A stretch of 64,000 bases of DNA from Acidobacteriota bacterium (GCA_965248695.1 CBDFKD010000002.1:4576001-4640000), one strand, 5' to 3'; shown: positions 2,570 through 63,580, counted from the first letter of the stretch. A program made the numbers and translations. Notes: a model not told the origin generated them from the letters alone.

Positions 2570-2570
2570 C

Positions 2571-2597
2571 CGGGTGCGCACATCTGGTGCGCACCCG
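2571..2597. terminator. Perfect 11-bp hairpin between convergent genes (possible bidirectional terminator or REP-like element)
   Basis: CGGGTGCGCAC-ATCTG-GTGCGCACCCG just after the TAG at 2569; no clear U-tract. Confidence 0.5.
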
Positions 2598-2654
2598 AAC
2601 AGCATCTCCGAACGAATCGGCCCCGGGCCGTTGTCGCCCCTGGAGCAGGAGTCG

Positions 2655-3989
2655 CTAGGCGACCACTAGCAGGTCAGCCGAAGTCATCGACAACCGTCGG
2701 CACCTATCGGTCTCGTGCACGAACGTGTCGATGAGCGCCGTGCTACCGGTTGAGTAGCTCTCGAAGTTGAACACCTGGCGTTCGGGGATGATCCACTCGC
2801 TCGTGTCCTCTTCGCCGACGCTGAAGCTCCACCAGCCGACCCAGTCCGGCGGGAAGCTGATGCCGAGCTCGTAGCCGCCGGTGAAGCCGCTGATCTCGCC
2901 GCGCTGACGCATCTGCCAGGCGCCCGTGTCCAGGTAGAACTCGCGCATGACCTTGGTGAGGTCCCTGAGCGGCATGCCGGCGCGCGCGTGAGCGGCGAGT
3001 GTTTCCATCGCCCGCCCGTTCATGTGGTAAAGGTCGGCCAGCTTCTTTGGCGGATCGCCAACGAAGAAGCCGCGGGCGGTGTTGGAGTGGTAGCGGTTCT
3101 TGACGCCGCAGATATCGCAGATGACGTGATCACCCATCTGCACCACGCGCTCCGAGGCGATGCCGTGCAGGAACGACGCGCCGCCCACCTTGATGGACGA
3201 CAGCAACCCCGACATGCCGCCGCCGGCTCGGGTCATGGCGCGTACCATCTCGCCGTAGACCTCGAGCTCGGTGACACCCGGCTGCAAGTGTTCCATGATC
3301 GCCTGCAGGCCGATGTCGCAGATGCGTGCCGCCTCGATTATGACGTCGATCTCGGCGGGTGACTTCAGCAGCTTCACATCGGCCATGATGTCGGAGGCAT
3401 CCTTGAGCGCGCAGCCGCGCGCCTCGAACACCGTCTCGAGCTGTCTCATTCGCGCCGGCACCGGCCGGTAGCTGAAGTACTGCAAACCGACGGTGCCGTT
3501 GAGCCAGCCGGCGGCCTCGAGCTCCATGGCGTGCCCTTCATACGGGCGCCCGCCGCCGCTCTGTGGGCGTCGGACATCGGTGGCTCCCGAGGTGGCCGCC
3601 ATCAGGTCGTCGTGGCTGTCGAAGTGGATGAGCGTGTCATGGTCGACATGCACGGCGCTAATCGAGTTCATCCCCCACGCCTTGGGGCCGTTCTGCTGGA
3701 ACCAGTTGAGCTCGATCCCGTGCAGATAGCACATGTCCTCGGGCATGGTGACGAACAGCATGTCGATGTTGTCCTTCGCCATGCGCTCGCGAACGCGGTT
3801 GAGCCGATCCTGGTATTCGGCCTTCGAGAATGGCGGTGGTGGGTGCTCACCAACGGTCGCTCCCGGAGCGACCTTGCGAGGCGTGAAACCGCCCGTGGTG
3901 GCGTTCGCAGAACCAGCGGCGAGCAGGCCGGCGGCAGAGGCCGCCGAGGTCGCCATGAAGTTGCGTCGATTCAGCTCCGGGTTCTTCAT
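2655..3989 (-). CDS. Tat-exported M24 family hydrolase (ectoine hydrolase EutD/creatinase-like)
   Basis: ATG 3989 preceded by GGAGGAGA; twin-Arg NRRNFM; creatinase-N-like 'FSKAEYQDRL..R'; 'LKSPAEI'; 'GYELGISFPPDW'. Confidence 0.75.
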   Translation of the reverse strand: MKNPELNRRNFMATSAASAAGLLAAGSANATTGGFTPRKVAPGATVGEHPPPPFSKAEYQDRLNRVRERMAKDNIDMLFVTMPEDMCYLHGIELNWFQQNGPKAWGMNSISAVHVDHDTLIHFDSHDDLMAATSGATDVRRPQSGGGRPYEGHAMELEAAGWLNGTVGLQYFSYRPVPARMRQLETVFEARGCALKDASDIMADVKLLKSPAEIDVIIEAARICDIGLQAIMEHLQPGVTELEVYGEMVRAMTRAGGGMSGLLSSIKVGGASFLHGIASERVVQMGDHVICDICGVKNRYHSNTARGFFVGDPPKKLADLYHMNGRAMETLAAHARAGMPLRDLTKVMREFYLDTGAWQMRQRGEISGFTGGYELGISFPPDWVGWWSFSVGEEDTSEWIIPERQVFNFESYSTGSTALIDTFVHETDRCRRLSMTSADLLVVA

Positions 3990-48159: not shown

Positions 48160-50469
48160 TCAGAGGTCATCGGGCGGCTCGTCCTGCTCGAGCGCCTGGC
48201 GCAGCCGCTCGCGTGCGGCCTCATCGCCGAACAACGTGGAATCTGTGTGCAGCAACTCGGCCACGACATCGTCGAGGCTGCGCTCGCTACGACGGCGCTG
48301 GTGCTCGCTGAGGTCACCGATAAACGGCCACAGGCGCACCCGGATGTCCGGTGGTAGCACTTGCTCGAGGTATTCCAGAGAGATGCTCTTGAGCTTGTCG
48401 TCGTCGAGAACGATGCCGTGAAACGCCGTTCGGATCGGGGCGGGCTCGAGAACCAGTGACAGGAGTCGGAACGTGTGCTCGAGCGAGAGCTCGCCGCGAC
48501 CATAAACGCGGTCGCTGATGAAGTCATCTGCGGTCGGGCGATCGTCGAGCAAGCGCTGCAGCTCCCAGATGGGTTGGTCTCGGCCGACCTCCGTCCGTAC
48601 GGCCCCCCAGACGCGGTCCTCGACATCGCGCTCGGCGATAGCTCGGGCTTTCTTGCGCCGCTGCGCCAGCGCCACGCCGCTGCGGTAGCGGATTTCGAAG
48701 CGGTCGCCGGCCAATCCATCCAGGAGCGCGTCGTCGGCGCGCGCCAGCTTGATCCCCGACAGAACGCGTGGGATACGGCGGCGAATGACGAAGTCGGCGG
48801 ACGGTTCCATCATCGTGGCCGCCAACGAATCGACCGCCTGGTCGGCCAGGCGTATCAGGATGCTGCCGGCTCGCCGGTAGAAGGCGTCGCGGGCCAGTAG
48901 CCGGGTCAGCGCGTCGACGTGCTCGACAGTCCAGTCATCGGCACCGTCGAGCGTTGCCGAGATGGTCTCGGGATCGCCTTCAGTTATGCAGTGGAGGGTG
49001 GTCGCGGCGCTCTGCTCCGATGCCTGCCCTGGCGTGCGTTTGGTCGCCTCTGGCAGTGTCAGACCGGACTGCGTGAGCGCCGCATTGAAGTCGAACTGTG
49101 TCACCGTCATGGTCATCTCACCGCCGGCGAATTGGGTCTGCACCAGGGCGTCCTCGATGCCCTCCTGCCCTTCCTGTAGCCGGTCGAGCAGGGTGCGGAA
49201 ATACTCCGCCCCCATGGCTCTGGCCAACAGCAGGAAGAGGCCTGCCGTGATCGCGACGACCGCGGCAAGGCCGCGCGACGGCAGCCCTGCGAAGACGACC
49301 CAGGCGAAGACGACCGCCGCGGCGGTACCCTCGGCGGCGCTATCCACAAACGAATCCACGAACGTCTTTGTCCGTCGTCGCTGGCTGGCGGGGACGGGAA
49401 CGTAGAGATACTCGAGCACCGAGCGATGCACCGATCTTCGCAGCGTGTTGTCGGTGCCCCGCACCACGGTGGCGGTGACCAGCCCGGGTAGCCAGAACAG
49501 AGCGGCGGAGCCGGTGAGGAGTGCGATCGGAAGCACGGCCAGGCTTACGCCGATACCGGCGGAGCTCAGCAGACGCGAGGCTACCAGCATCTGGATTGCA
49601 AGCGCCGCAACACCGCTGATGCCGTAGAAGGTGCCCAAGAAGGCCGCAAAATCCGTGTCGTCGGGATACGCAGCGGCAGCCGCCTCCTTGAACTGGTAGT
49701 CGATGAGGCCGGATGCGAAGGTGGCGACGGCGACGATCAGCGCCATCGTACGCAGATGTGGAGTGCGGACAACGAGCGCCAGACTTTCGGCGACTGCCGG
49801 GCTGTCGACGTCGCGCGGCGCCGAGTCGACGGTGGGCTCCGGCAGCAAGCGCAGCAACAGGAGCAGGGCCCCGAGCGCGGCGATCAGGCTCAGAACGAGC
49901 CCGGAGTTTCCCATGCCCGGGGAAGACGAAAGGCTCTCGAGGGTCCGGCCGACGGGACCCAGCGAAAGGCCGGCGACCATGGCGCCGAGCGTTCCACCCG
50001 CCCCGATCATCCCGAATAGTAGCTTCGCGTCGCGCAGCGCGAACTGCTCCGAGGTCACGACCCAGAACCCGGACGTGAGGAGGAGCGTTCCCAGCGCTGT
50101 GAAAACGTAGAAAGCGACCGTGGTGGCGCCGTCGACCGCGTCGGATGCCGACAGCGAGGTCAGGGCCCAGAGCACGAAGAGCCCGCCGATAAGGATCGAG
50201 ATCAGCATCTGGTAGACGGTCTCGGGCTCCTGGCGGGTCATCAGGCGACTGAACGCGCCGACAAGCGGCAGGCTCAGGAGCGCCGTGACGATGATCACGT
50301 AGGGGAGCGACTCGATCGAGAACTCGTCGATGAAGAACGCCTCGCGCAGCGAACGGGCGGCGATGCTGAACGCCATGACCAGGAACGCGCCCAGCGCGGA
50401 TACGGTGAACTTGCGGTGCTGGTGTGGTCGGATGTCCAACCAGCGCGCCAGCGCCAACAAGGGGCTCAT
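48160..50469 (-). CDS. Npt/TLC-like nucleotide transporter fused to a HEAT-repeat domain
   Basis: About 12 TM N-terminal domain ('R.AK.LFG.IGAGGTLG', 'DYQFK', 'LY.PVP...R..TK.F.D'); helical repeat C-terminus. Confidence 0.75.
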   Translation of the reverse strand: MSPLLALARWLDIRPHQHRKFTVSALGAFLVMAFSIAARSLREAFFIDEFSIESLPYVIIVTALLSLPLVGAFSRLMTRQEPETVYQMLISILIGGLFVLWALTSLSASDAVDGATTVAFYVFTALGTLLLTSGFWVVTSEQFALRDAKLLFGMIGAGGTLGAMVAGLSLGPVGRTLESLSSSPGMGNSGLVLSLIAALGALLLLLRLLPEPTVDSAPRDVDSPAVAESLALVVRTPHLRTMALIVAVATFASGLIDYQFKEAAAAAYPDDTDFAAFLGTFYGISGVAALAIQMLVASRLLSSAGIGVSLAVLPIALLTGSAALFWLPGLVTATVVRGTDNTLRRSVHRSVLEYLYVPVPASQRRRTKTFVDSFVDSAAEGTAAAVVFAWVVFAGLPSRGLAAVVAITAGLFLLLARAMGAEYFRTLLDRLQEGQEGIEDALVQTQFAGGEMTMTVTQFDFNAALTQSGLTLPEATKRTPGQASEQSAATTLHCITEGDPETISATLDGADDWTVEHVDALTRLLARDAFYRRAGSILIRLADQAVDSLAATMMEPSADFVIRRRIPRVLSGIKLARADDALLDGLAGDRFEIRYRSGVALAQRRKKARAIAERDVEDRVWGAVRTEVGRDQPIWELQRLLDDRPTADDFISDRVYGRGELSLEHTFRLLSLVLEPAPIRTAFHGIVLDDDKLKSISLEYLEQVLPPDIRVRLWPFIGDLSEHQRRRSERSLDDVVAELLHTDSTLFGDEAARERLRQALEQDEPPDDL

Positions 50470-50669
50470 GGTGTCTGCGCTGGTGTTGCGATTCCGACGA
50501 TGGCACCGAGGCGAGCTTGCCAGCGATTCGGTGACGCGTCTTCGGGCACGTTTCCTCGCGCGGAGTGGCTCAGAGCCGATCCGTGGCGCGCGATTGTAGC
50601 ATCGGTCGTGGAGCCCGAGCGGGCGGTGCTAGACTCTTCTCAACGAGCCTGAGACGCGGGTAGGGAATC

Positions 50670-51281
50670 ATGGAAGAAGTTGATCAGCAGGTTGGCGCGA
50701 ACGGGACATCCGTCAGACTGACCGACAAGGCGATTGCGAAGGTCAGCGAGTTCGCCGCCGGACACGACGAGGCAGCGGGCAAGCATCTGCGGATCTATAT
50801 CCAAGGTGGTTCCAAGGCCTCCTACGAATATGGCTTCACGTTCGACGAGCGCCACAACGGTGACGAGGTGCTGCCGCAGGGTGATGTAGACCTGCTCGTC
50901 GACCGGTTCTCGCTCATGTACATGCTCGGTAGCCAGGTGGATTTCGTCGATGATGTGCGCGGCAGCGGCTTCGTGGTCGACAATCCCAACCTGCCGCCGC
51001 TGATGCAGAACCCGGTGGCTGCGAAGGTGCAGGAGATTCTGGAGGAGCGCATCAACCCGGGCGTCGCCAGCCATGGTGGATGGGTATCGCTGATCGACTA
51101 CGACGCGGGTCGCGTCTTCCTCAAGCTCGGCGGCGGGTGCCAGGGCTGCGGCATGGTCGACGTAACCCTCAAACAGGGTATCGAGCGGGTTCTGAAGGAC
51201 GAGATTCCCGACATCGTCGAAGTACTCGACACTACCGACCACGCGTCGGGGACGAACCCCTACTTCTCGGCCGCCAAGTAG
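50670..51281 (+). CDS. nfuA: Fe-S cluster biogenesis protein NfuA
   Basis: Degenerate A-type N-terminal domain lacking Cys; NifU-C 'INPGVASHGG...GGGCQGC', 'TDH..G.NPY'. Confidence 0.9.
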   Translation: MEEVDQQVGANGTSVRLTDKAIAKVSEFAAGHDEAAGKHLRIYIQGGSKASYEYGFTFDERHNGDEVLPQGDVDLLVDRFSLMYMLGSQVDFVDDVRGSGFVVDNPNLPPLMQNPVAAKVQEILEERINPGVASHGGWVSLIDYDAGRVFLKLGGGCQGCGMVDVTLKQGIERVLKDEIPDIVEVLDTTDHASGTNPYFSAAK

Positions 51282-51296
51282 GCCCCGGCGGGGGCC
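51281..51296. terminator. GC hairpin after nfuA, between convergent genes
   Basis: GGCCCC-GGCG-GGGGCC. Confidence 0.35.
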
Positions 51297-51366
51297 GCTG
51301 GTCGACGGCAAGGCCGCGCCGGTCGCCGATCTCGATGTCCACTGTCGACCGAGAGGCCCGAGGACC

Positions 51367-52596
51367 CTAGTCGATCGTGAAGCGCAGCGCCGTGTGGGCA
51401 CGGCGCAGCACAGATTCGACGGCGTCTGGTGTTTCTGCGCGCGCGAAGATGAACCCCAAGTACTGGTTGCCTTCCGGCAGCGGTACGACCGCTTGGCCGC
51501 GGAGGATCGAGATCGTGACCTCCTCGATACCGATGATCGAACGCGCTGTCTCCAGACCCTCGACACCGCGCAGTGTCCCGGCGTAGGGGATCGGGATCAT
51601 CATCACGCCAGCCGCGGCCGACTCACGACTCAGGTCGTCGACGCCGTATCCCAGCGCGGCTCGGAGTATCAGCTCCTCGAGGCTGATCCCGGTACCGAAT
51701 CGCAGTACGCGGCCGCAGCGGCCGCCAATGCTCCGCGGCGCGACCTCGAGCACGGTCGCCTGACCGTCGTGCAGACGAACCTCGGCGTGGATCGGCCCGT
51801 GGCTTAGCCCGAGGGCGACGATGGCAGCCTCGGTAGCAGCAACTACGGTGCGCCGGTGCTCGTCCGGCAGGCGTGAGGGCGTCGTGTAGAGGGTCTCCTC
51901 GAAGAACGGACCTTCGAGTGGATCCGGTTTGTCGAAAACTGCCAGCACCTGCATGACGCCGCCCATCAGCAGCCCTTCGACGGCGACCTCCGTGCCAGGC
52001 AGGTAGCTTTCGATCAGCAGCTGGTGACCCGCGATCGGAGCGCGCTGGCGGATCTCCGGTGTGTCGAGCAGTGCGGTAATGCGCGCCGCTGCACCCAGCA
52101 GCTGTTCTGCGGAATCGACTCGGATGACCCCGCGCGAAGCCGACAGGAACGTTGGCTTGATGACGCACGGGTAGGGCACTTCGGTTGCCAGACGATCAAT
52201 CTGCGTGCCGGTCGCACCCCAGTACTTCGGACCCGGGAGCCCCGCCGCGTCGAGTCGTTGCCGAAAGAGAAGCTTGTCGCCTGCCGTGGCGACGGCCTGC
52301 GGCGGATTACCCGCGAGTCCCAGGTCGGCGGCCGCCGCGGCTGCCAGCAGCATCGTCTCCTCGTCCGGTCCGAGGATCGCGTCCAGCGGCTGTTCGTCGT
52401 GATGCGCGGCGATTGCTCGACTGGTTCCGTCCAGATCGGCGAAGTCGAGGGTCAACGTTGCCGTTCCGGGCAAAGACTCCAGTGCCTGCCGACGGTTGGT
52501 ACCGATCACCACTTCGGCGCCCACCCGGTCGGCCGCTGTCAACAGCGCTTCGGCCCGGTAGGTGGTGGCCGGGATCAGGATGAGAACCCTGGGCAT
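51367..52596 (-). CDS. ATP-grasp domain protein (L-amino acid ligase-like)
   Basis: 'DK..FR', 'YPCVIKP..LSASRGVIRV', 'ESYLPG.EVAVEG', 'HAEVR', 'EVAPRSIGG'; start ATG 52596. Confidence 0.85.
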   Translation of the reverse strand: MPRVLILIPATTYRAEALLTAADRVGAEVVIGTNRRQALESLPGTATLTLDFADLDGTSRAIAAHHDEQPLDAILGPDEETMLLAAAAAADLGLAGNPPQAVATAGDKLLFRQRLDAAGLPGPKYWGATGTQIDRLATEVPYPCVIKPTFLSASRGVIRVDSAEQLLGAAARITALLDTPEIRQRAPIAGHQLLIESYLPGTEVAVEGLLMGGVMQVLAVFDKPDPLEGPFFEETLYTTPSRLPDEHRRTVVAATEAAIVALGLSHGPIHAEVRLHDGQATVLEVAPRSIGGRCGRVLRFGTGISLEELILRAALGYGVDDLSRESAAAGVMMIPIPYAGTLRGVEGLETARSIIGIEEVTISILRGQAVVPLPEGNQYLGFIFARAETPDAVESVLRRAHTALRFTID

Positions 52597-52700
52597 GGCG
52601 CGAAGGATAGCCCACCGGTGCGCAGCCGGTTCTGACGCCTGGGGGAATACAGTATCCTGCGCAGCTGCAAGCACTTGAGGCATCTGCTACGCAGGGACGG

Positions 52701-55700
52701 ATGGGCAACGCTCGCGAACGAAAGGCGAAGAGATACGCTGCCGACCTGGTGCACGAGTTATTCGAGGCGCGGGTCGAGCAGGAGCCTGAAGCGAGGGCGC
52801 TGGAAGGGAACGGGGAGCAGCTCAGCTACGCGCAGCTGGAGCGGCGCGCCAATCGACTCGCTCCATCACCTGCTGGAGTGCGGCGTCGGTGCCGAAACGC
52901 GAGTGGGACTGCTTCTGGAGCGGTCCCCGAACATGGTCGTAGGCGGTGCTGGCCGTGCTCAAGGCCGGTGGCGCCTACTTGCCGCTGGATCCCTCGTATC
53001 CCGAGGCCCGGGTGCGCTTCATGCTCGAGGACGCTTCGGCGGGTCTGTTGGTGTCCGAGGGGCAACTCACCGATCGGATACCGGGCGAGCTTTGCTGCCC
53101 TGTCGTGTTGCTCGACGCGGCGGCGACGCAGATCGAAGGTTGCCCGGCCGAACCGCCCGACGTCGAGATCCATCCGGAACAGCTCGCCTACGTTATGTAC
53201 ACCTCGGGATCGACCGGAACCCCGAAGGGTGTCGGGGTACCTCACCGGTCGCTGAGCAACCATACGCGCAGCGCCCGGCGCGCCTACCAGATCGAGCCAG
53301 GCGATCGGGCTCTGCAGTTCGCCTCGCTGACTTTCGATATCAGCGTTGAGGAGAATCTTCCCGACGCTGATGGCCGGCGCGGCGCTGGTGCTGCGCGACG
53401 AGGAGCTGTCGATCGGGTTGTTCTTGCGGCAGCTGTGCCAACGCCGGATCACGGTGCTGAATCTGCCGACCGGCTATTGGCACGAGCTGGTGGCCGAGCT
53501 CGGGCGCTCGGGCGAGCCGCTACCGGCCGGCCTGCGGCTGGCGATCGTCGGGGGCGAGGCAATGCGCGCCGACCGTGTTCGCGCCTGGACGAAGATCGCC
53601 GCGCGCCGCGCCCCGAGCGCACGGTTGGTGAACAGCTACGGACCCACGGAGGCGACGGTCGTGGCAACGCGGTGGACGGCGCCCGAGGAAATAGCCGACG
53701 GCAACGGTGCGGCGACGGTGCCGATCGGCCGACGGATCTACAACGTCAGGGTGTACGTGCTGGACGATGCCATGCGGGTGTGCCCGGTTGGCGCCGTTGG
53801 CGAGCTGTACATCGGCGGGCTGGGGGTGGCGCGCGGCTATCTGAACCGTCCCGGCCTGACCGCCGCCAGCTTCGTGCCCGATCCCTTCGGCCCCTCGAGC
53901 GGCGATCGGGGCGGGCGCCTGTACAAGACCGGCGATCGGGTCCGCTACCGCCCGGACGGCGAGCTCGAGTTTCTCGGCCGCATCGACGACCAGGTCAAGA
54001 TCCGCGGCTTCCGTATCGAGCTCGGCGAGATCGAAGCCGCCCTCCGCGATCACCCAGGAGTTACCGAGACCATCGTCGTCGCCCGCGACGCGCCTTCCGG
54101 AGCTCGCGAGCTGGCCGCGTACATCACGGCCGATCCCGGGGAGACTGCCGACGCATCCGAGAGGGACGGGTGGTGCCACGCCCACGTCGAAGCCAGCCAG
54201 GTGATCTACGAGGAGGCATACAGTCGGATTTCAGCCGGTATCGATCCCGAGCTCAACACCGTCGCATGGAACAGCAGTTACACGAACCGACCTATCCCGG
54301 CCGACGAAATGAGCGAATGGGCGTTGGGAACCGTCGAGCGCATCGAGGCGATGTGCCCGGATCGAGTCCTCGAAATCGGCTGCGGCACAGGAATGCTGCT
54401 GCTCCGCCTAGCACCTCGGTGCTCGCGCTATATGGGCACTGATTTCTCGCGGGCGGTTCTGGGGTGGCTCTCCGATCACGTCGGCCACCTGCCTCAGGTG
54501 GAGCTGTCGTGCTGTGATGCCGCCGATCTATCCGTCGGGGGCCGGGGAAGGTTCGATACGGTGATTATCAACTCGGTCACGCAGCATTTCCCGAGCGCCG
54601 ACTACCTGCTTCGCGTCCTGGAGGGCGCGATTGACAGTACTGAGATCGGCGGCTCCATTTTTGTTGGTGACGTTCGGAGTCTGCCGCTGCTCGAAGCCTT
54701 CGCTACGTCGGTGAAGTTCTTCCAGGCCGACGACGAGCTGTCCCTGCGCGCTCTGCGCGATCAGATCGACCGGCGCGTGCTCGGCGAGCAGGAGCTGGTC
54801 ATCGATCCGCGTTTTTTCTCGGCCCTCAAGCTCCGTCAACCGCGCATCCGCGAAGTGCACGTGTGGCTGAAGCCCGGCCGTGCCGACAACGAGATGACCC
54901 GATTTCGGTACGACGTCGTGATGCGCCTCGACGAGAAACCGCCGGCACAGTCTGCCAGTGTCGTCGATTGGAGCGACGAGATCCGGAGCTTGGCGAGTCT
55001 CGGGGAGCGGCTGACCACCGAGGCACCGGATGTTCTGCACGTTCGCGGCATCCCGAACCGCAGGGTTGGCACCGACATGGCGATCCTCGACGCGCTCTCC
55101 GCAAACGAGAGCTCCCGAACAGTCGGAGATTTGCGCCGGCAGCTAGGACGACTCGTGCGGGACGGCGTCGATCCCGAAGAGCTCCGCAGCCTCGGGCGCC
55201 GATATGGATACCATGCCCGAACCACGTGGATTCGCGCCGACCCGCGCGGAGCCTACGAGGTCGTTCTCGTGCCGGGGCAGAATGGGCAGGCCAGGATCCC
55301 GCCGTGCGCGCTCTCTGAACGTGCAAGTGTGCCGCTGCGTTCGCTGACCAACGACCCTCTGCGAGCCAGAACGGCGGGCGCTCTGGTCCCGCGGCTCAAG
55401 CGCCATCTGCGTAGCGTCTTGCCCGAGTACATGGTTCCTCCGTCGATCGTGGTGCTCGGCGATCTGCCGCGCTCGGCAAGCGGGAAGGTGGCCGTCGAGG
55501 CACTGCCGGCGCCCGACGGGACGCGCCCCGATCTCGGCGCGGAGTTCGTCGCCTCGAGCTCGACGATCGAGAAGACGCTGGTTGAGATCTGGGGCGAGGT
55601 GCTGGGGCTCGAAGCGATCGGTATCCACGACAACTTCTTCGATTTAGGAGGGCACTCGCTTGCCGCGACGCGGGTCGCATCTCGTTTGCGCGATCGCCTT

Positions 55701-58700
55701 GGGCGCGACGTCCCCCTGAGCGACCTTTTCGACCGGCCAACCGTGGCGGATCTGGCGCGTCACGTCGAGATGCTCCAAGGATCGCCGGACACCGCACGAC
55801 GGACGCCGCCGCTCGAGCGCGCCGATCGTGCCGTTCCCCTGCCGCTTTCGTTCGCGCAACAACGCCTTTGGTTCCTCGATCAGGTCGACCCGGGCAGCCC
55901 GGCGTACAACGTGCCCGACGCGGTGCACATGAGCGGACATCTCGAGGTTGCCGCGCTGAAAAGGGCGTTGGCCGCGATGGTGGCTCGCCATGAAATCCTG
56001 CGGACCACGTTTCCGGCGGCCGACGGGGAGCCATATCAGCACATCGCTTCCGGTGGCGCGACGGAGCTGCGGGTCGTCGACCTCTCGAAGCTTCCCGAAC
56101 ACGAGCGTGCGTCGGCCGCTCGACGAGCTCTGGAAACCACGGCAACCGCACGATTCGACCTGAGCGGTGGACCGCTGTGGCGCGCCACACTGGTTCGATA
56201 CAGTGCGACGCGGCACACCCTGTTGCTGACGCTGCACCACATCCTCACCGACGGGTGGTCGCAAGCGGTCTTTTTTTCTCAGCTCGCCGACCTCTACGAA
56301 GCGTTCGTGGAAAATCGCCAGCCTCCGCGGGTCGAGCTTCCGGTGCAGTACGCCGACTTCGCCGCCTGGCAACGCAGAATGCTGACCGGCAAGGCGCTCG
56401 CTCCACTGGTCGATTATTGGACCGACCAGCTCGCCGGCCTTCCCGCTCTCGAACTGCCGACCAACCGGCTGCCCGACGAGGCGCATGGATCGGCTGCCCT
56501 TCGACATCGCTTCCGGCTGCCGGTTGCGTCGGCGCGCCGCCTGGCGGATCTCGGTCGGCGCCACGACTGCACCCTGTCGATGACACTGACCGCAGCCTTC
56601 ATGGCGCTCTTGCAGCGGTTTACAGGACAGAACGACTTCGCCATCGGAACGCCGGTGTCCAACCGCAATCGACGGGAGCTAGACGATCTCGTCGGTAACT
56701 TCGTGAACCTCTTGGTGTTGCGAGCCGACCTGGAGGGTGATCCGACGTTCGACGATCTGCTGGCACGCGTACGGCGAACGACACTGGCGGCCTTGGAGCA
56801 TCAGGAGCTGCCCTTCGAAAGGCTCGTTGAACAGCTCCATCCGCGACGCGACGGCTGGCGCAATCCGCTGTTCCGGGTCTCGTTCGCGCTCCAGGACCGC
56901 CCGCCGCCGGCTCGCGAGCTGAGTCAGCTGTCGATGCGCCTCGAACCGTTCGAGGCGTGTTCGTGCACGACGGAAGACTCATCGATGCGACCACGGTGGC
57001 CAGCATGGCCAGTCACTTCGTCAACCTGATGACCGCCGTGCACGACGAATCCGACCGCCCTCTACGAACCCTCGACCTACTGTCTGAAACCGAGCGGCAC
57101 CGGGTCCTGGTCGAGTGGAACGATAGCAAGGTCGCCCATCCGACCGCCGGCTGTGTGCATCGAGCTTTCGAGGATCGCGCCCGCGAGTGCGGCGGTGCGA
57201 TTGCGGTCGTCGACAACGGCACGCACATCACTTTCGCCGAGCTCAACCGGCGTGCCAACCGACTGTCCCATCATTTGACCGGTCTCGGGATCGGTTCCGG
57301 AGCTCAAAGGGTCCGCCCGGATCTCCTCGTGGGGCTGCTGCTCGAGCCTTCTGTAGAGCTGGTGATCGCGCTACTGGCCGTCGTCAAGAGCGGTGCAGCC
57401 TATGTGCCACTCGATGCCAGGTTGCCCCCAGATCGTCTCCGTGCAATCGCCAACGAGGCCGGGCTGGCCGCCGTGCTGACCGCCGGCCCGCTACCCGAGC
57501 TCTTCGACGATTTGGTGTCGGCCTGCGCCGTCGATCTTGTCGGTGATGCTGCGCTGATCGCGGCGAACCCGTGCGACGACCCCACGACCGCAGTGGCTGT
57601 CGATTCGCCCGCGTACGTGCTGTTCACCTCGGGCTCGACCGGTAGACCCAAGGGTGTGGTCGTGCATCACCGAGCGCTCACCAACCACATGCAATGGATG
57701 GAACGCGCTTTTCCGTTGACCGCTGCCGACCGGGTCCTGCAAAGGACACCCTTCAGCTTCGACGCATCCGTATGGGAGTTCTGGGCACCCCTGATGGCCG
57801 GGGCCACACTGGCAATGGTGCCGCGCGGCGCGCACCGGGAACCGGGAAGCCTCGCTCGAGTGCTCGATGAGCATCGCGTCACGGTAATGCAGGTCGTGCC
57901 AACGTTGCTCGAGCTTTTGATCGACGAACCAGCCGCGTGCCAGTACTTGAAGACGATGTTTTGTGGTGGTGAGCCGCTCCCGGTCGAGCTCGCGCGGCGC
58001 TACTTGGCTAGCGGCTGGGGAGCACGGTTGATCAACCTTTACGGTCCGACAGAAACGACCATCGACGCGAGCTTTCATACCGTCGAGGCGCTGCCGGCCG
58101 GGGGCACCGTGCCCATCGGGCGGCCCATCGACAACGTGACGCTCTACGTTCTGGACGCCGACCAGAGATTGGCACCCCCCGGGGCGCGGGGCGAGCTGTA
58201 CATCGGCGGCGCCGGTGTCGGGCAGGGCTATCTCCGGCAACCGGGTTTGACTGCCGAGCGCTACCTGCCCGACCCGTACAGCCACAAGGCCGGGAGCCGC
58301 ATGTATCGGACCGGCGATCTCGTGCGCCGCCTCGCCGACGGCAACATCGAATTCCTCGGGCGGATCGACGCGCAGGTCAAGGTGCGCGGCTTCCGCATCG
58401 AGCTCGGCGAGATCGAAGCCGTGCTGCAGACACACCCGGGCGTGCACGGCGCCGTGGCTTCGGCGCGCGAAGACCGTCCGGGAGACAAGCGTCTGGTGGC
58501 ATACGTGGTGGTCGCTGAGGAGCAGCCGACGGCTGCCGAGCTGCGCGCACATATGAAGACGAAGCTTCCGCTGTACATGGTGCCCGCGACGTTCGTGACC
58601 GTCGAGGCGTTTCCGCTCCTGCCGAGCGGCAAGGTAGACCGCCGGTCGCTGCCCGCCCCCGGCATCACGCAGCGCAGCACCGCGGTCGCCTACGTGGCCC

Positions 58701-61700
58701 CGCGCACAGCCGAAGAGGAGCCATTGTGCGAAATCTGGCGCGAATGCCTCGGTCTAGAGAGGGTGGGGGTGCACGATGATTTCTTCGAGCTCGGAGGGCA
58801 TTCGTTACTAGCGACGCAGGTGATCTCCCGGATCCGGAAAGGGTTCGGCGCCGAGGTTCCGCTGCGCAGCATCTTCGAAAACCCGACCGTCGCCGAGCTC
58901 GCCGAGGAGATCCAGCGTACCGGGCACGCCGAGGTCCGAGCCGACGCTGATATCGAGCCAAGAGCTCGAACCGGTGACTTGCCGCTATCGTTCGCGCAGC
59001 AGCGCCTGTGGTTCCTCGACCAACTCGAGCCCGGGACGACGCTGTACAACGCTCCCGAGGCGTTTCGCTTGCGCGGCCCGCTGGACCCGGGCGCTTTGGA
59101 GGCCGCGCTGTGTGAGATCGTGCGCCGCCATGAGGCGTTGCGAGCGACGTTTCCGAGCCGCGGCGGGGTGCCGTATGCCTCCATTGCCGCGGAGCCGGAC
59201 TTCGTGTTGCATCGCACCGACGTATCCGGGGACGGCGATCCCGACGGCGATGTTCTACGTTGCATCCAACGGAAGATAGCCACTCCCTTCGAGCTCGATC
59301 GAGGTCCTCTGCTTCGAGCGGCGTTGCTGCGCTGCGGCGCCGACGATCACGTTCTGCTGCTTAACCTCCATCACATCGTTACCGATGGATGGTCGCAGCG
59401 AGTTCTCTACAGCGAGCTCAGGGCGCTCTACGAGGACTTCGTCGCCGGCCAACCCTCCCGTTTGTCAGATCCTACCGTCCAATACGCGGACTTCGCCGCG
59501 TGGCAGCGGGAGTGGCTACGCGGCGACACGCTGCAGCGACAACTCGACTATTGGCGTTGCCAACTGCGTGATCTGCCGATGCTGGAGCTTCCTACCGACC
59601 GGCCCCGACCCAAGGTCCAAAGCCACAGGGGAGGCGGTCACTCATTCGAGCTCTCCGCGCAGCTAACGCGGCGGCTTCGTGCCGTGGCCGTACAGCACCG
59701 ATCGACGCCCTTCATGATCGCCCTGGCGGCGTTCTACCTGCTCCTGCACCGATACTCCGGGCAGGACGACTTCGCGATCGGTATTCCGATCGCCAATCGC
59801 AATCGGCGGGAGATCGAGGACCTCATCGGGTTCTTCGTCAACATGCTCGTGATCCGCGTTGACCTCGGCGGCGACACAACCTTCGCCGAGCTCCTGGCGC
59901 GCGTCCGAGAAACAACTCTCGATGCCTATACCCATCAGGATCTGCCCTTTGAGAAACTGGTGGATGAGCTCGAGACGGTTCGCGACACGTCACGCAGCCC
60001 GCTCTTCCAGGTTTCCTACACCCTGGATGACGAGCTCGCCTACGGTTCGCGTAGCGATCGACTCGAGCTCATGGATATCGATTCCGAGCCGTTCGACTTG
60101 GAGCTCCGGCGTTGTTTGTTTGATCTCGAGCTCGTCGTCTGGGCCGAAGACGAGAGCCTGCGTGGGCAATTTATGTACGCCGCCGAGCTTTTCGAAGCCA
60201 CGACGATCGCGGCGATGGCCGATAGCTTCGAGACGTTGCTCGAAGCGGTGATCGAGGCCCCTGAACGGCCCCTGCGCGAGATTGATCTTCTCAGTCCAAC
60301 CGAACGGCGCACGCTCCTTGTGGAATGGAATGACACCAGGCGGGATGAGCCTCGCGCCGACCTGGTGCACGAGTTGTTCGAGGCGCGGGTCGAAGAGGAC
60401 CCTGAAGCGAGGGCGCTGGAAGGGAACGGGGAGCAGCTCAGCTACGCGCAGCTGGAGCGGCGCGCCAATCGACTCGCCCATCACCTGCTGGAGTGCGGCG
60501 TCGGTACCGAAACGCGGGTGGGGCTGCTTCTGGAGCGCTCGCCGAACATGGTCGTCGCGGTGCTGGCCGTGCTCAAGGCCGGTGGCGCCTACGTGCCGCT
60601 GGATCCGACCTATCCGGAAGCCCGAGTGCGCTTCATGCTCCAGGACGCCGCGGCGGCTCTGTTGGTGTCCGAGGCGCATCTGACCGATCGGGTCCCGGGC
60701 GAGCTTTCCTGCCCCGTCATCTTGCTCGACGCTGCGGCGACGCAGATCGAAGCTTGCCCGGCCGAGCCGCCCGATGTCGAGACTCATCCGGAACAGCTCG
60801 CTTACGTCATCTACACTTCCGGATCGACCGGCACGCCGAAAGGCGTCGGGGTGCCGCATCGGTCGCTGAGCAACCATACGCGCAGCGCCCGGCGCGCCTA
60901 CCAGATCGAGCCAGGCGATCGGGTTCTGCAGTTCGCCTCGTTGAGCTTCGATATCAGCGTCGAGGAGATCTTCCCGACGCTGATGGCCGGCGCGACGCTG
61001 GTGCTGCGCGACGAGGAGCTGGCGGCCGGCTTGTTCTTGCGGCAGCTACGCGAACGCCGGATCACGGTGCTGATCCTGTCGACCGGCTATTGGCACGAGC
61101 TGGTGGACGAACTCGAGCGCTCGGGCGAGCCGTTACCGGCTGCTCTACGGTTGGCGACCGTCGGTGGCGAGGCGATGCGCCCCGACCGTGTCCGCGCCTG
61201 GACGAAGATCGCTGCACGCGGCGCCCCGAGCGCGCGGTTGGTGAACGGGTACGGACCTACGGAGGCGACGGTCGTGGCAACACGGTGGACGGCGCCCGAG
61301 GAAATAGCCGACGGCAACGGTGCGGCAACGGTGCCGATCGGCCGACCGATCGACAACGTCAGCGTGTACGTGCTGGACGACGCCATGCGGGTGTGCCCCG
61401 TGGGCGCCGTCGGCGAGCTGTATATCGGCGGGTTGGGAGTGGCGCGTGGCTATCTGAACCGTCCCGGCCTGACCGCCGCCAGCTTCGTGCCCGACCCCTT
61501 CGGTCCGTCGAGCGGTGATCGGGGCGGACGCCTGTACAAGACCGGCGATCGGGTCCGCTACCGCCCGGACGGCGAGCTCGAGTTTCTCGGCCGCATCGAC
61601 AACCAGGTCAAGATCCGCGGCTTCCGCATCGAGCTCGGCGAGATCGAAGCCGGCCTCCGCGATCAGCCAGGAGTTACCGAAGCGACCGTTGTCGCCCGCC

Positions 61701-63580
61701 TGGACCATCCCGGCGGTCGTCTCGCAGCGTATGTCGTCGCGACGCCCGGCGAGACCCCGTCGAGACAAGAACTGCGTCGATTCGCGAGAACGCGACTCCC
61801 CGATTACATGGTGCCGTCGACGTTCACGGTTCTCACGGAGTTGCCGCTCACACCCGCCGGCAAGGTGGACCGCGCTGCCTTGCCGCAACCAGACCAGGGC
61901 GCGCCGGAAGAGACTCCTGCGGTGCCCCGAACAGCCACCGAGGAGCTGTTGGCCGGCATCTGGTGCCGGTGCCTCCGGGTGGACCAGGTCGGGATCCACG
62001 ACAACTTCTTCGAGCTCGGCGGCCACTCGCTGCTGGCAACGCAGGTGATCTCCCGAATCCGCTCGCTATTCGGCGTCGAGCTACCGATCTTGACGTTGTT
62101 CGATCGACCGACGGTGGCGCAACTGGCGAAAAGACTGGACGACGGCGACGACGCGCTGCGAGCGGCAGAGTCCGATCTCATCGCTCGGCGCTCGGACGCG
62201 AGCGAGACTCCGCTGTCTTTCTTCCAGGAGCGCCTGTGGGCCCTCGATCGGCTGACGCCAGGCAGCTCTATCTACCATGTCCGCGAAGCGATGCGGCTGT
62301 CCGGCCCCCTCGATATCGGGGCCCTGTGGCGAGCGTTTGGGGCGATCGTGCGTCGCCACGACGCGTTGCGCACGATTTTCCCGTGCCACGACGGGACGGT
62401 GTATCAGGCGGTCGCCGAGCCCGGGGAAATAGAGCCCCGCGTCGTTGATCTGTCTGGGTTGCCGACCGGGGAGCGCGAGGCTGCCGCATCGCGCCATTTG
62501 CGGGAAGCGGCGGAGGTTCCTTTCGATCTGGCACGCGGTCCTTTGTTGCGCGCCACGCTCCTGCGCTGTGGCCCCGAAGAGCACATCCTGCTCCTCGTGT
62601 TTCACCACCTCGTCACCGATGCGTGGTCGGCAACGATCCTGCTAAGGGAGCTCGAGACCTTCTATACCGGTCTTACCAACGGCGGGTCGCCGGCCGTCGG
62701 CGAGTTGCCACTGCAGTACCCTGATTTCGCCGACTGGCAACGCCGCCGCTTCCGGGGTCAGGTCCTGGAGGAGCAACTCTCCTACTGGGGCCGGCAGCTG
62801 ACGGGTCTCCCCGAGCTGAGACTTCCCTACGAAGAACCGAGCTCCACGGTGCGCAGCTATCACGGTGCAGAGCTACCGTTCCGGGTGTCTCGGGAGGCCA
62901 CACGCAAGGTCGAAGAGCTTGGCCGTGAGTACGGATGCACCGCGTTCATGTCGGTAGCGGCAGCACTTGCCGTCGTGCTGCACGGCTACTCGCGGCAGGT
63001 CGACTTCGGCATCGGCTTTCCAATTGCCAACCGCAACATCCGTGAGCTCGAGCAAATGATCGGCAACTTCGTGAACTTCCTGGTGTTGCGCGTCGACCTC
63101 AGGGGCAACCCCCGTTTCGCCGATCTGCTCGCCAGGGTGCGCCAGACTACCCTCGAAGCCTATGCGCACCAAGATCTGCCCTTCCAGACGCTTCTCGAAC
63201 ACGACGTCGGCGTTGGCTCTGCCTCCGGAAACCCGCTGTTCCAGGCCTACATCAACATGCAAACCGCTGCGACACCCGGTCTCGCTCTTCCCGGATTGAG
63301 CGTCGATACGATGGCCGTCCCCGGACCAGCCGAGCGCTTCGAGCTCGGTCCCCCTCGTTGGGCCGACGCGCGAGCGCGGCCTATCCGCCTGTACCTGGCA
63401 CTTGACCAGATCCTCGAAGGTGTGCTCGTTTACAATCGCAATCTTTTTTCCATGCCGACAATTTCGCGCATGCTCAATCGTTTCGAGACGACGCTTGTCG
63501 GCGCCGCGGTTCACCCGGAGCTTCGAGTGCTTGACCTGTGGGATCTGGCGGTCCGGAAGACCGATCGGGAGGAGGACTGA
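52701..63580 (+). CDS. Three-module NRPS A1[N-MT]-T-C-A2-T-C-A3-T-C without TE; interrupted by frameshifts near 52862, 52941, 53354 and 56957
   Basis: A cores (YTSGSTG.PKGV, YGPTE, GELYIGG, YKTGD, KIRGFRIELGEIE); MT (LEIGCGTG, INSV.Q.FP) inserted between A8 and A9; three GGHSL carrier motifs; C motifs HHILTDG, HHIVTDG, HHLVTDA. Pieces are spread over ORFs 52701, 52675, 52946, 53346 and 56957. Confidence 0.92.
52740..54086 (+). repeat. About 1.35-kb internal duplication (A1), paired with 60356-61699
   Basis: Long identical nucleotide runs with 60356-61699; this copy is 3 nt longer, matching three single-base insertions. Confidence 0.9.
60356..61699 (+). repeat. About 1.35-kb internal duplication (A3), paired with 52740-54086
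   Basis: Intact reading frame; near-identical to the A1 copy. Confidence 0.9.

What the first reader, a model, noticed from the sequence alone, without database searches (positions are those of the whole stretch)
52740..61699. Recently duplicated adenylation domains that differ at three substrate-pocket positions
Seen: 52740-54086 and 60356-61699 share long identical runs, including synonymous sites. Among their scattered differences are three of the ten code positions: 278 N (AAT 53460) vs I (ATC 61073), 299 I (ATC 53544) vs T (ACC 61157), and 322 S (AGC 53634) vs G (GGG 61247), plus P/S two residues after 278. Similarity ends just before the MT insertion point after A8. Inference: intragenic duplication or gene conversion followed by specificity reprogramming, a natural minimal pair for A-domain engineering.
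Basis: partly seen in the sequence, partly recalled or inferred. Interest (0 to 1): 0.72.

Follow-up and report, generated by a model that had tools for sequence, protein, structure and literature searches.

The report
Duplicated NRPS adenylation core, one copy broken
Two substrate-selecting domains of one peptide-synthetase gene in an uncultured Acidobacteriota genome are 91% identical copies that differ at three pocket positions, but the first copy and a neighbouring domain carry frame-breaking mutations, so the gene is most likely dead.

Summary
The repeat is real. 52740-54086 and 60356-61699 are 91% identical. The rest of the modules are only 44-49% identical in protein. The tract covers the adenylation core and ends 25 codons before an inserted methyltransferase. 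This matches the known pattern of Acore replacement or gene conversion in NRPS genes (PMC8097286). It is not very recent: dS 0.22, dN/dS 0.20.

They move the reading frame 3>1>2>3, and a stop follows at 53253. The next condensation domain has an out-of-frame deletion near 56898-56944. Contigs built independently from the reads of four runs of one sample reproduce all four lesions. So the trimodular NRPS A(MT)-T-C-A-T-C-A-T-C is most likely a recent pseudogene.

Compared with 80 outgroup domains, the broken A1 keeps the family-typical pocket and the intact A3 has the unusual one. Pocket enrichment is marginal (p 0.04). No orthologue was found. This is a new member of a known kind, of modest interest.

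The parts
52701..63580 (+). Trimodular NRPS gene A(N-MT)-T-C-A-T-C-A-T-C. It is now read in pieces: frame 3 from ATG 52701 to the stop at 53253-53255, frame 3 ORF 53346-57029, and frame 2 ORF 56957-63580.
   Evidence: ORF lists, Pfam, sequence, C domains
52740..54086 (+). Copy 1: the core of adenylation domain A1 (motifs up to A8 plus about 20 residues). Code positions read D I E N I G S V V.
52862..52862 (+). +1 insertion (T) relative to copy 2. The homologous frame moves from 3 to 1.
   Evidence: Reproduced in X1 record 3 (depth 11; 30 letters to its left, one short of the tool's 31-letter rule) and in X3 record 16 (depth 2, spans 52600-54453).
52941..52942 (+). +1 insertion with a substitution (C in copy 2, AG here). 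The frame moves from 1 to 2.
   Evidence: X1 record 3 and X3 record 16
53253..53255 (+). Stop codon met by a ribosome that starts at ATG 52701 and stays in frame 3.
   Evidence: ORF 52701..53255, sequence
53354..53354 (+). +1 insertion (A) directly after the codons of E239-E240. The frame moves from 2 back to 3.
   Evidence: X1 record 6 (depth 10.8) and X3 record 16
54162..55394 (+). Methyltransferase inserted in the C-terminal subdomain of A1, after A8 and before A9 (VLEIGCGTG SAM motif seen).
   Evidence: Pfam Methyltransf_12/25/11 at residues 338-444 of ORF 53346, AMP-binding_C 1-43 before it; tblastn gap; translation
55395..55766 (+). Rest of the A1 C-terminal subdomain (LPEYMVP; lysine of A10 at 55485-55487) and carrier domain T1 (55575-55766). 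About 44.5% identical to the module 3 counterpart.
55839..56897 (+). Condensation domain C2, Pfam profile positions 5-358 of 456, frame 3.
56898..56944 (+). Lesion in C2. 47 nt stand where C3 has 41 residues, and the frame changes from 3 to 2: an out-of-frame deletion of roughly 25 codons.
   Evidence: X1 record 7 (4752 nt, depth 13.4) covers 53670-57200 with no difference
56945..57142 (+). C-terminal remnant of C2 in frame 2 (weak match to profile positions 415-453; 51% identical to the end of C3).
57146..58909 (+). A2 (45.7% identical to A3; code positions D A W Q F G L I D) and T2 (58724-58909).
58973..60319 (+). Condensation domain C3.
60356..61699 (+). Copy 2: the core of adenylation domain A3, intact. 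Code positions read D I E I T G G V V.
61700..62137 (+). A3 C-terminal subdomain (A10 lysine at 61862-61864) and T3 (about 61940-62137).
62204..63541 (+). Terminal condensation domain C4. The gene ends at 63580 without a thioesterase.
51367..52596 (-). Divergently placed ATP-grasp / L-amino-acid-ligase-like gene. It is a probable cluster member and looks intact.
   Evidence: Pfam ATP-grasp_4, LAL_C2, ATPgrasp_N; ATG read

Best explanation
One NRPS gene of an uncultured Acidobacteriota genome underwent an intragenic copy or gene-conversion event limited to the adenylation core. The core of module 1 and the core of module 3 became the same sequence. Each module kept its own C-A linker or start, C-terminal A subdomain (in module 1 interrupted by an N-methyltransferase), carrier domain and condensation domains.

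The two cores then diverged for a considerable time under purifying selection. During that time the module 3 copy acquired unusual residues at pocket positions 278 and 299, and the copies came to differ at 322. This probably changed or broadened the amino acid that module 3 selects, from a basic or long polar substrate of the ApnA-A1-like D-x-E-[D/N]-I-G type.

Later, and recently relative to the copy event, the gene was inactivated. There are three +1 insertions within 493 bp of the A1 core and an out-of-frame deletion in C2. As it stands the gene is a pseudogene and A1 cannot be made.

Shown: the repeat, its limits, the lesions and their presence in the reads, the selection regime, and the polarity of the pocket changes. 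Inferred: the conversion mechanism, the order of events, the change of substrate, and the loss of function.
For: Repeat limits:
- 91% DNA identity from 52740 to 54086.
- Flanking parts are only 44.5% (Asub-T-C), 48.7% (C2/C3) and 45.7% (A2/A3) identical in protein.

Uniqueness of the pair: no other A domain is above 54% (loci) or 53%.

Selection and polarity:
- dS 0.223, dN 0.044, omega 0.20 over 446 codons. A1 cannot have evolved neutrally for most of the time since the copy event.
- N278 occurs in 19 of 80 outgroup domains and I278 in 1; I299 in 40 of 80 and T299 in 1.
- The nearest outgroup codes are DIENIGGVT, DAEDIGTVV, DTEDIGTVV and DVENIGAIT.

Pocket analogue:
- The A4-A5 stretch matches ApnA A1 (4d4g) at E 9e-27, against 8e-13 for the next chain.
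- ApnA A1 codes DVE[D/S]IG.. go with Arg, Arg+Tyr and Arg+Lys. Sites 278, 322 and 331 are under positive selection there (PMC5311044, section 15 read).

Lesions:
- Frame path 3>1>2>3 with the stop at 53253.
- The C2 Pfam match stops at profile position 358 of 456 in frame 3 and resumes weakly at 415 in frame 2, with 47 nt between.

Read support:
- X1 records 3, 4, 6 and 7 (depths 10.8-13.4) and X3 record 16 match the window with 0 differences and 0 gaps across all four lesions.
- The only contigs lacking the insertions carry the 6 of 139 and 38 of 419 differences that define copy 2.
- Copy 2, with almost the same local context, is read without insertions.

Genome quality: the genome is not generally frameshifted. 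There are 334 open frames of 800 aa or more, rpoB is open over 1389 aa, and a 2249-aa open frame lies next door.

Literature pattern: Acore-limited exchange that keeps the C-A linker and Asub-T is described as the predominant natural recombination unit (PMC8097286, passages read).
Against: Read evidence:
- All four runs are one sample and one study and may be the data the genome was built from. The read evidence is therefore independent of the assembler, not of the sample or platform.
- The library type is not on record.
- At 52862 the well-covered contig has only 30 letters on one side. The contig that bridges it amply has depth 2.

Lesions:
- Three of the four lesions lie within 493 bp of a 10,880-bp gene (simulation p 0.023), and all three are +1. 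Simple neutral decay does not predict this.
- The excess of A1-derived changes (24 against 15) is not significant (p 0.20), so relaxed constraint on A1 is not visible in substitutions.

Pocket changes:
- Enrichment is marginal and was tested after the fact (p 0.038 for all differences, p 0.033 for A3-derived ones).
- The region-level dN/dS difference is not significant.
- Outgroups are at most 54% identical and have mixed substrates, so polarity at pocket sites is suggestive only.

Gaps: there is no orthologue to show an intact form, and no expression data.
Confidence: 0.72

Rival explanations
1. The frameshifts and the C2 lesion are sequencing or consensus errors, for example in a long-read metagenome assembly. 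On this reading the NRPS is intact, and A1 and A3 are both working domains.
For: - The genome is a 2-contig metagenome-type assembly with completeness 96.4.
- The runs' library type is not on record, and they are from one sample.
- Three +1 events close together that sum to +3 look odd for natural decay.
Against: - K-mer contigs built separately from the reads carry every lesion at depths 10.8-13.4.
- No A1-like contig without the insertions appears among those listed. At 52862 the two contigs counted account for the whole depth of 16.
- The inserted bases are not in long homopolymers.
- Copy 2 has nearly the same context and is read without them.
- About 987 kb of open frames of 800 aa or more argue for a low indel rate.
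- The C2 lesion is a loss of about 25 codons, not a one-base slip.
Confidence: 0.08
2. The repeat is a core conversion as described, but the three pocket differences are ordinary drift. They would be tolerated substitutions, or in A1 the result of relaxed selection, and both domains had the same substrate.
For: - Enrichment at code positions is only p 0.038. dN/dS for A4-A5 is 0.30 against 0.165 elsewhere, not significant.
- Single changes at code positions did not alter specificity in McyA2 constructs (PMC3640908, passage read).
- The acidic residue at 239 and positions 235, 236, 301, 330 and 331 are unchanged.
Against: - I278 and T299 are each seen in 1 of 80 related domains, and both lie in the intact copy.
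- In ApnA A1, changes at 278 and 322 go with changed product spectra.
- N to I at 278 takes two base changes.
Confidence: 0.3
3. Whole-module tandem duplication, or independent acquisition of two similar A domains from outside, instead of an intragenic core-limited conversion.
For: NRPS modules do arise by duplication. No relative is available to show the state before the event.
Against: - Identity falls from 91% to 44-49% on both sides of the tract.
- Module 1 has no C domain and has a methyltransferase that module 3 lacks.
- No outside domain is above 54%.
Confidence: 0.04

Closest known systems
Acore subdomain swaps in bacterial NRPS genes (Baunach et al. 2021, Mol Biol Evol, PMC8097286; passages read)
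   Same: The exchanged unit is the adenylation core. The native C-A linker, Asub, Asub-T interface and C domains are kept. That paper also marks modules with a methyltransferase between motifs A8 and A9 among its exchange units.
   Different: - Here the source and target are two modules of the same gene.
- The event is old enough for dS 0.22.
- The 3' limit lies about 20 residues past A8, inside Asub.
- No product or orthologue is known.
- The gene is now broken.
Adenylation-domain gene conversion in microcystin synthetase (McyA2; McyB1/McyC) (Shishido et al. 2013, PMC3640908; abstract and passages read)
   Same: Replacement of nearly the whole specificity-conferring part of an A domain by recombination. 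This includes recombination between A domains of different modules of one cluster (mcyB1 and mcyC), followed by or alongside point mutations.
   Different: Those clusters are functional and their products are known. Here function is lost and the substrates are only guessed.
ApnA A1 of anabaenopeptin synthetase, natural point-mutation series (Entfellner et al. 2017, PMC5311044, section 15 read; PDB 4d4g)
   Same: - Best solved-structure match of the A4-A5 stretch.
- Same pocket frame D-[V/I]-E-x-I-G-x-[I/V]-x-K.
- A few changes at 278, 322 (and 331) shift the spectrum between Arg, Tyr and Lys.
- Overall dN/dS 0.22 there, 0.20 here.
   Different: - ApnA variants are alleles between strains, not paralogous cores in one gene.
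- Position 299 does not vary there.
- The residues here (N/I at 278, S/G at 322, V at 331) are not among the listed ApnA codes.
Interrupted adenylation domains with a methyltransferase between A8 and A9 (described in PMC8097286; the review by Labby et al. 2015 is recalled, not read)
   Same: A1 has 43 residues of the C-terminal subdomain, then about 411 residues with SAM-methyltransferase matches, then A9 (LPEYMVP) and A10.
   Different: The type of methylation (N, O or other) was not tested. N-methylation is my reading from motifs I recall.

Membership tests
NRPS adenylation domain (Pfam PF00501 AMP-binding plus PF13193) | Full-length match to the AMP-binding profile in one open frame | tested here: met
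   A3: profile positions 1-384 at residues 1141-1500 of ORF 56957-63580, AMP-binding_C at 1562-1636
NRPS adenylation domain (Pfam PF00501 AMP-binding plus PF13193) | The same, for A1 | tested here: not met
   The profile is split: positions 63-220 in frame 2 (ORF 52946-54442) and 224-384 in frame 3 (ORF 53346-57029). The first 65 codons lie in frames 3 and 1.
Acore exchange unit (Baunach et al. 2021) | High similarity to another module confined to the A core, with the C-A linker, Asub-T and C domains native | tested here: met
   91% within 52740-54086, 44-49% outside. The tract runs about 20 residues beyond A8.
Acore exchange unit (Baunach et al. 2021) | An orthologue without the exchange that shows the breakpoints | not testable with these tools
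   No orthologue in 40 relatives, GTDB representatives, JGI metagenomes or the protein collection
Interrupted A domain with methyltransferase between A8 and A9 | Methyltransferase fold match placed after A8 and before A9/A10 of the same domain | tested here: met
   Pfam order AMP-binding, AMP-binding_C 1-43, Methyltransf_12/25/11, then PP-binding. A9 and A10 motifs read at residues 692-715.
ApnA-A1-like pocket for Arg/Lys/Tyr | Code D-V-E-[D/S]-I-G-x-[I/V]-[E/A]-K | tested here: inconclusive
   Over the nine code positions read, A1 DIENIGSVV shares 5 with DVEDIGAVEK and A3 DIEITGGVV shares 5 with DVEDIGGVEK; the A10 lysine adds one more to each.
Functional NRPS gene | Uninterrupted reading frame through all modules | tested here: not met
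   Four frame-breaking lesions, present in read contigs

The most novel reading that the evidence does not exclude
The locus is an assembly line caught while being shortened and re-aimed. The N-methylating loading module has just been lost. The remaining open frame (C remnant-A2-T-C-A3-T-C, called as a 2191-aa protein) may still work as a two-module enzyme whose A3 carries a newly evolved pocket. The dead A1 would then preserve, as a fossil within the same gene, the ancestral pocket state. That gives a polarised before/after pair (N278I, I299T, S322G) for a basic-amino-acid pocket.
Probability: 0.12. Interest if true: 0.5.

Novelty: new member of a known kind. Interest (0 to 1): 0.3.

Why it matters
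Natural core-limited exchanges between modules are the templates now used to plan NRPS engineering. This adds an example from Acidobacteriota, a phylum with few studied clusters. Its breakpoints lie at the start of the A domain and just past the A8 hinge, next to an inserted methyltransferase.

Its value as a 'minimal pair' is limited. The copies differ at 40 residues, one copy is frameshifted, and no product or orthologue is known.

The practical lesson is that one-base gaps in a repeat alignment must be checked against the reading frame before a functional story is built on the repeat.

Tried and rejected
- Orthologue searches found nothing close. DNA search in 40 relatives: 0 of 4 same-genus genomes matched, and other hits were at most 74% over at most 408 nt. 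GTDB representatives: best segment 60%. JGI metagenomes: best 54%. Protein collection: best 53%, own ORF a singleton. blastn of the fetched loci against the genome gave only A-domain similarity of 72% or less.
- The residue-level alignment to GrsA (1amu) could not be shown. It ranked 21st and 7th, outside the alignments printed, and protein comparison does not take a PDB chain id (error). The mapping was done through ApnA A1 instead.
- Full-text search for the two 10-letter codes and four near variants found 0 papers, so no substrate assignment comes from print. Supplements were not consulted.
- Earlier findings of this scan: none for this place.
- Region-level dN/dS contrast (A4-A5 against the rest): not significant.
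- Heterogeneity of dS along the tract (0.06 to 0.38 in 50-codon windows) and the 102-nt identical run (p 0.011) hint at later small conversion patches. I did not pursue this further.
- Contig depths of copy 1 against copy 2 differ (11 against 5 in X1, the reverse in X2). The tool says such depths cannot rank parts of a gene, so I drew no conclusion.
- Programmed frameshifting at three sites: considered and rejected from the sequence alone. I saw no shared slippery motif, and there is a stop in the starting frame. No formal test was run.
- Expression could not be examined.


Full report
WHAT IS THERE

The window lies in a 5.89-Mb, 2-contig, 65% G+C genome. Its Der GTPase is closest to proteins named Acidobacteriota (90% partial and 61%).

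Between 52701 and 63580 on the + strand lies the genome's only NRPS. All three condensation domains found in the genome are here. Pfam and translation give this order: A1 (interrupted by a methyltransferase)-T1-C2-A2-T2-C3-A3-T3-C4, with no thioesterase.

The neighbours are as follows:
- Upstream and divergent: an ATP-grasp/L-amino-acid-ligase-like gene, an ORF without Pfam match, and a TLC-like transporter.
- Downstream: two ORFs without Pfam match, a Ser/Thr kinase with TPR repeats, an Sfp-type phosphopantetheinyl transferase, an amino-acid permease and an aldehyde dehydrogenase.

THE OBSERVATION

The repeat is real.
- The repeat finder gives six families linking 52740-54061 with 60356-61674, at spacings of 7616, 7615, 7614 and 7613.
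- blastn gives 1235 of 1351 identities with four one-base gaps.
- The genome has no third copy. The next best match is A2 at 70%.

I could not display the alignment to GrsA. I therefore verified the numbering through ApnA A1.
- The A4-A5 stretch aligns to PDB 4d4g at E 9e-27.
- The paper on ApnA A1 gives W277/S278, 322 as the x of NxYGPTE, and codes of the form DVE[D/S]IG.. (PMC5311044, section 15 read).

The nine code positions inside the tract read DIENIGSVV for A1 and DIEITGGVV for A3. The A10 lysine is present in both.

The first gap (52739) is only the ragged edge of the alignment. A1 has its own ATG at 52701, 13 codons before the similarity starts.

The other three gaps are +1 insertions in copy 1, at 52862, 52941 and 53354.
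- The frame that is homologous to A3 runs 3, then 1, then 2, then 3 again.
- A ribosome starting at 52701 meets a stop at 53253-53255.
- Motifs A2, A3 and A4 are therefore out of frame with the start. The third insertion sits directly after the E239-E240 codons.

A fourth lesion lies in C2.
- The Pfam match ends at profile position 358 of 456 in frame 3.
- The tail of the domain resumes in frame 2 at 56945 (51% identical to the end of C3; weak Pfam match to positions 415-453).
- Only 47 nt stand where C3 has 41 residues.
- This is an out-of-frame deletion of roughly 25 codons.

ARE THE LESIONS REAL?

Four runs of one sample and study hold the stretch. Their separately built contigs were laid on 52600-57200.
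- In X1, records 3 (52832-52972, depth 11), 4 (52949-53275), 6 (53280-53699, depth 10.8) and 7 (53670-57200, depth 13.4) match the window with no difference and no gap.
- In X3, a 1996-nt contig (depth 2) spans 52600-54453, also without difference.
- The contigs that 'leave out' a base at 52862, 52941/2 and 53354 carry 6 of 139 and 38 of 419 other letters. These are exactly the copy 2 differences, so they are copy 2 laid on copy 1.
- At 52862 the two contigs (depths 11 and 5) make up the whole depth of 16. No A1-like contig without the insertion was counted there.

Caveats:
- The runs may be the data the genome came from.
- The library type is not on record.
- X1 record 3 has 30, not 31, letters left of 52862.
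- 118 further pieces were not listed.

Against a general error problem:
- There are 334 open frames of 800 aa or more (about 987 kb) on the chromosome.
- rpoB is open over 1389 aa.
- A 2249-aa open frame follows directly.
- The insertions are not in long homopolymers, and copy 2 with nearly the same context lacks them.

I put an artefact at about 0.08.

WHAT KIND OF DUPLICATION

Identity is 91% only from the first residues of the A domain to about 20 residues past motif A8 (54086). Weaker protein similarity continues to 54161, where the methyltransferase insertion (54162-55394) begins.

Beyond the tract the modules are no more alike than any two modules:
- 44.5% for Asub-T-C.
- 48.7% for C2 against C3.
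- 45.7% for A2 against A3.

No A domain elsewhere comes near. The best of 304 tblastn rows over 160 fetched loci is 54.4%, and the best in the protein collection is 53%.

So this is not a module duplication. It is a core-limited copy or gene conversion between two modules of one gene. This is the pattern described as the predominant natural exchange unit, which keeps the C-A linker and the Asub-T interface (PMC8097286, passages read). Recombination between A domains of mcyB1 and mcyC, and conversion of McyA2, are earlier examples (PMC3640908, passages read).

TIMING AND SELECTION

Over 446 codons aligned in four in-frame segments (the codons at the breaks were dropped):
- 40 residues and 111 bases differ.
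- Nei-Gojobori dS is 0.223, dN is 0.044 and omega is 0.20.

The event is therefore not very recent. Most divergence happened while both copies were under constraint, so the inactivation is late (inference).

I found no significant sign of relaxed constraint in substitutions.
- Against 80 outgroup domains, A1 carries the rarer residue at 24 positions, A3 at 15, with one tie (p 0.20).
- A1 does have R for the Pro of GRPIxN (P in 73 of 80, R in 0), M for I in the A3 motif region and T for S before FD.
- A3 has S for the P of LPT.

THE POCKET

- 3 of 9 code positions differ, against 40 of 446 overall (hypergeometric p 0.038).
- The A4-A5 stretch has omega 0.30 against 0.165 elsewhere. This is not significant (p 0.20).
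- One 50-codon window (53348-53498) reaches 0.81.

Polarity is the more telling result.
- N278 (19 of 80) and I299 (40 of 80) in A1 are the common states. I278 and T299 in A3 each occur once in 80.
- At 322 the A3 state G (14 of 80) is commoner than S (2 of 80).
- The nearest outgroup codes are DIENIGGVT, DAEDIGTVV, DTEDIGTVV and DVENIGAIT.
- Two A3-derived changes among 9 code positions, against 15 among 446, gives p 0.033. This test was made after the fact.

In ApnA A1, which has the same D-x-E-x-I-G frame, changes at 278, 322 and 331 go with Arg, Arg+Tyr or Arg+Lys products.

My reading is that the ancestral core selected a basic or long polar amino acid, and that A3, the intact copy, moved away from it. 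This is inference; no substrate was tested. The A2 code DAWQFGLID is one I recall as a glutamine code. That assignment is from memory.

UNEXPLAINED

Three of the four lesions fall within 493 bp of a 10,880-bp gene (simulation p 0.023). All three are +1, which brings the frame back to 3.

Neutral decay does not predict this. A local mutational cause is conceivable but untested, for example faulty repair during exchanges between the two 91% identical cores. The longest identical run, 52785-52890, spans the first insertion.

VERDICT

- The pair is not minimal, and one member and the gene as a whole are broken.
- It is a new member of a known kind (Acore exchange), in an understudied phylum. It has no known product or orthologue and is of modest interest.

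Noticed in passing
window 51367-52596 (-), 50640-51566 (-), 48160-50469 (-): Divergent from the NRPS start lie three genes: an intact-looking ATP-grasp / L-amino-acid-ligase-like gene (ATP-grasp_4, LAL_C2), an ORF with no Pfam match, and a 769-aa protein with a partial TLC ATP/ADP-transporter match. They may belong to the same cluster.
   Followed up: partly
window 63402-64544 and 64333-65655 (+) (= L094:1402-2544, 2333-3655): Two overlapping ORFs of 380 and 440 aa directly after the NRPS have no Pfam match. It is not known whether either is a real gene.
   Followed up: partly
L094:7347-8054 (+), about 5.8 kb downstream of the NRPS stop: An Sfp-type 4'-phosphopantetheinyl transferase (4PPT_N plus ACPS) that looks intact although the only NRPS of the genome is broken.
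   Followed up: no
window 52862, 52941, 53354: All three insertions are +1 and lie within 493 bp, so that the frame returns to the starting one. This is unlikely under uniform placement (p 0.023) and is not explained.
   Followed up: partly
window 52832-53699 in runs X1 and X2: Contigs of copy 1 and of copy 2 have unequal depths: 11 against 5 and 3.7 in X1, and about 3 against 7.5 in X2. This could be noise or strain mixture. It cannot be interpreted with contig depths.
   Followed up: no
window 57146-58468: The middle adenylation domain A2 has code positions DAWQFGLID. I recall this as a glutamine code, but did not verify it.
   Followed up: no
window 55485-55499: The A10 motif of A1 reads SGKVAVEAL. 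From memory, A10 usually has D-R after G-K-V, which would make this unusual; the lysine is present.
   Followed up: no
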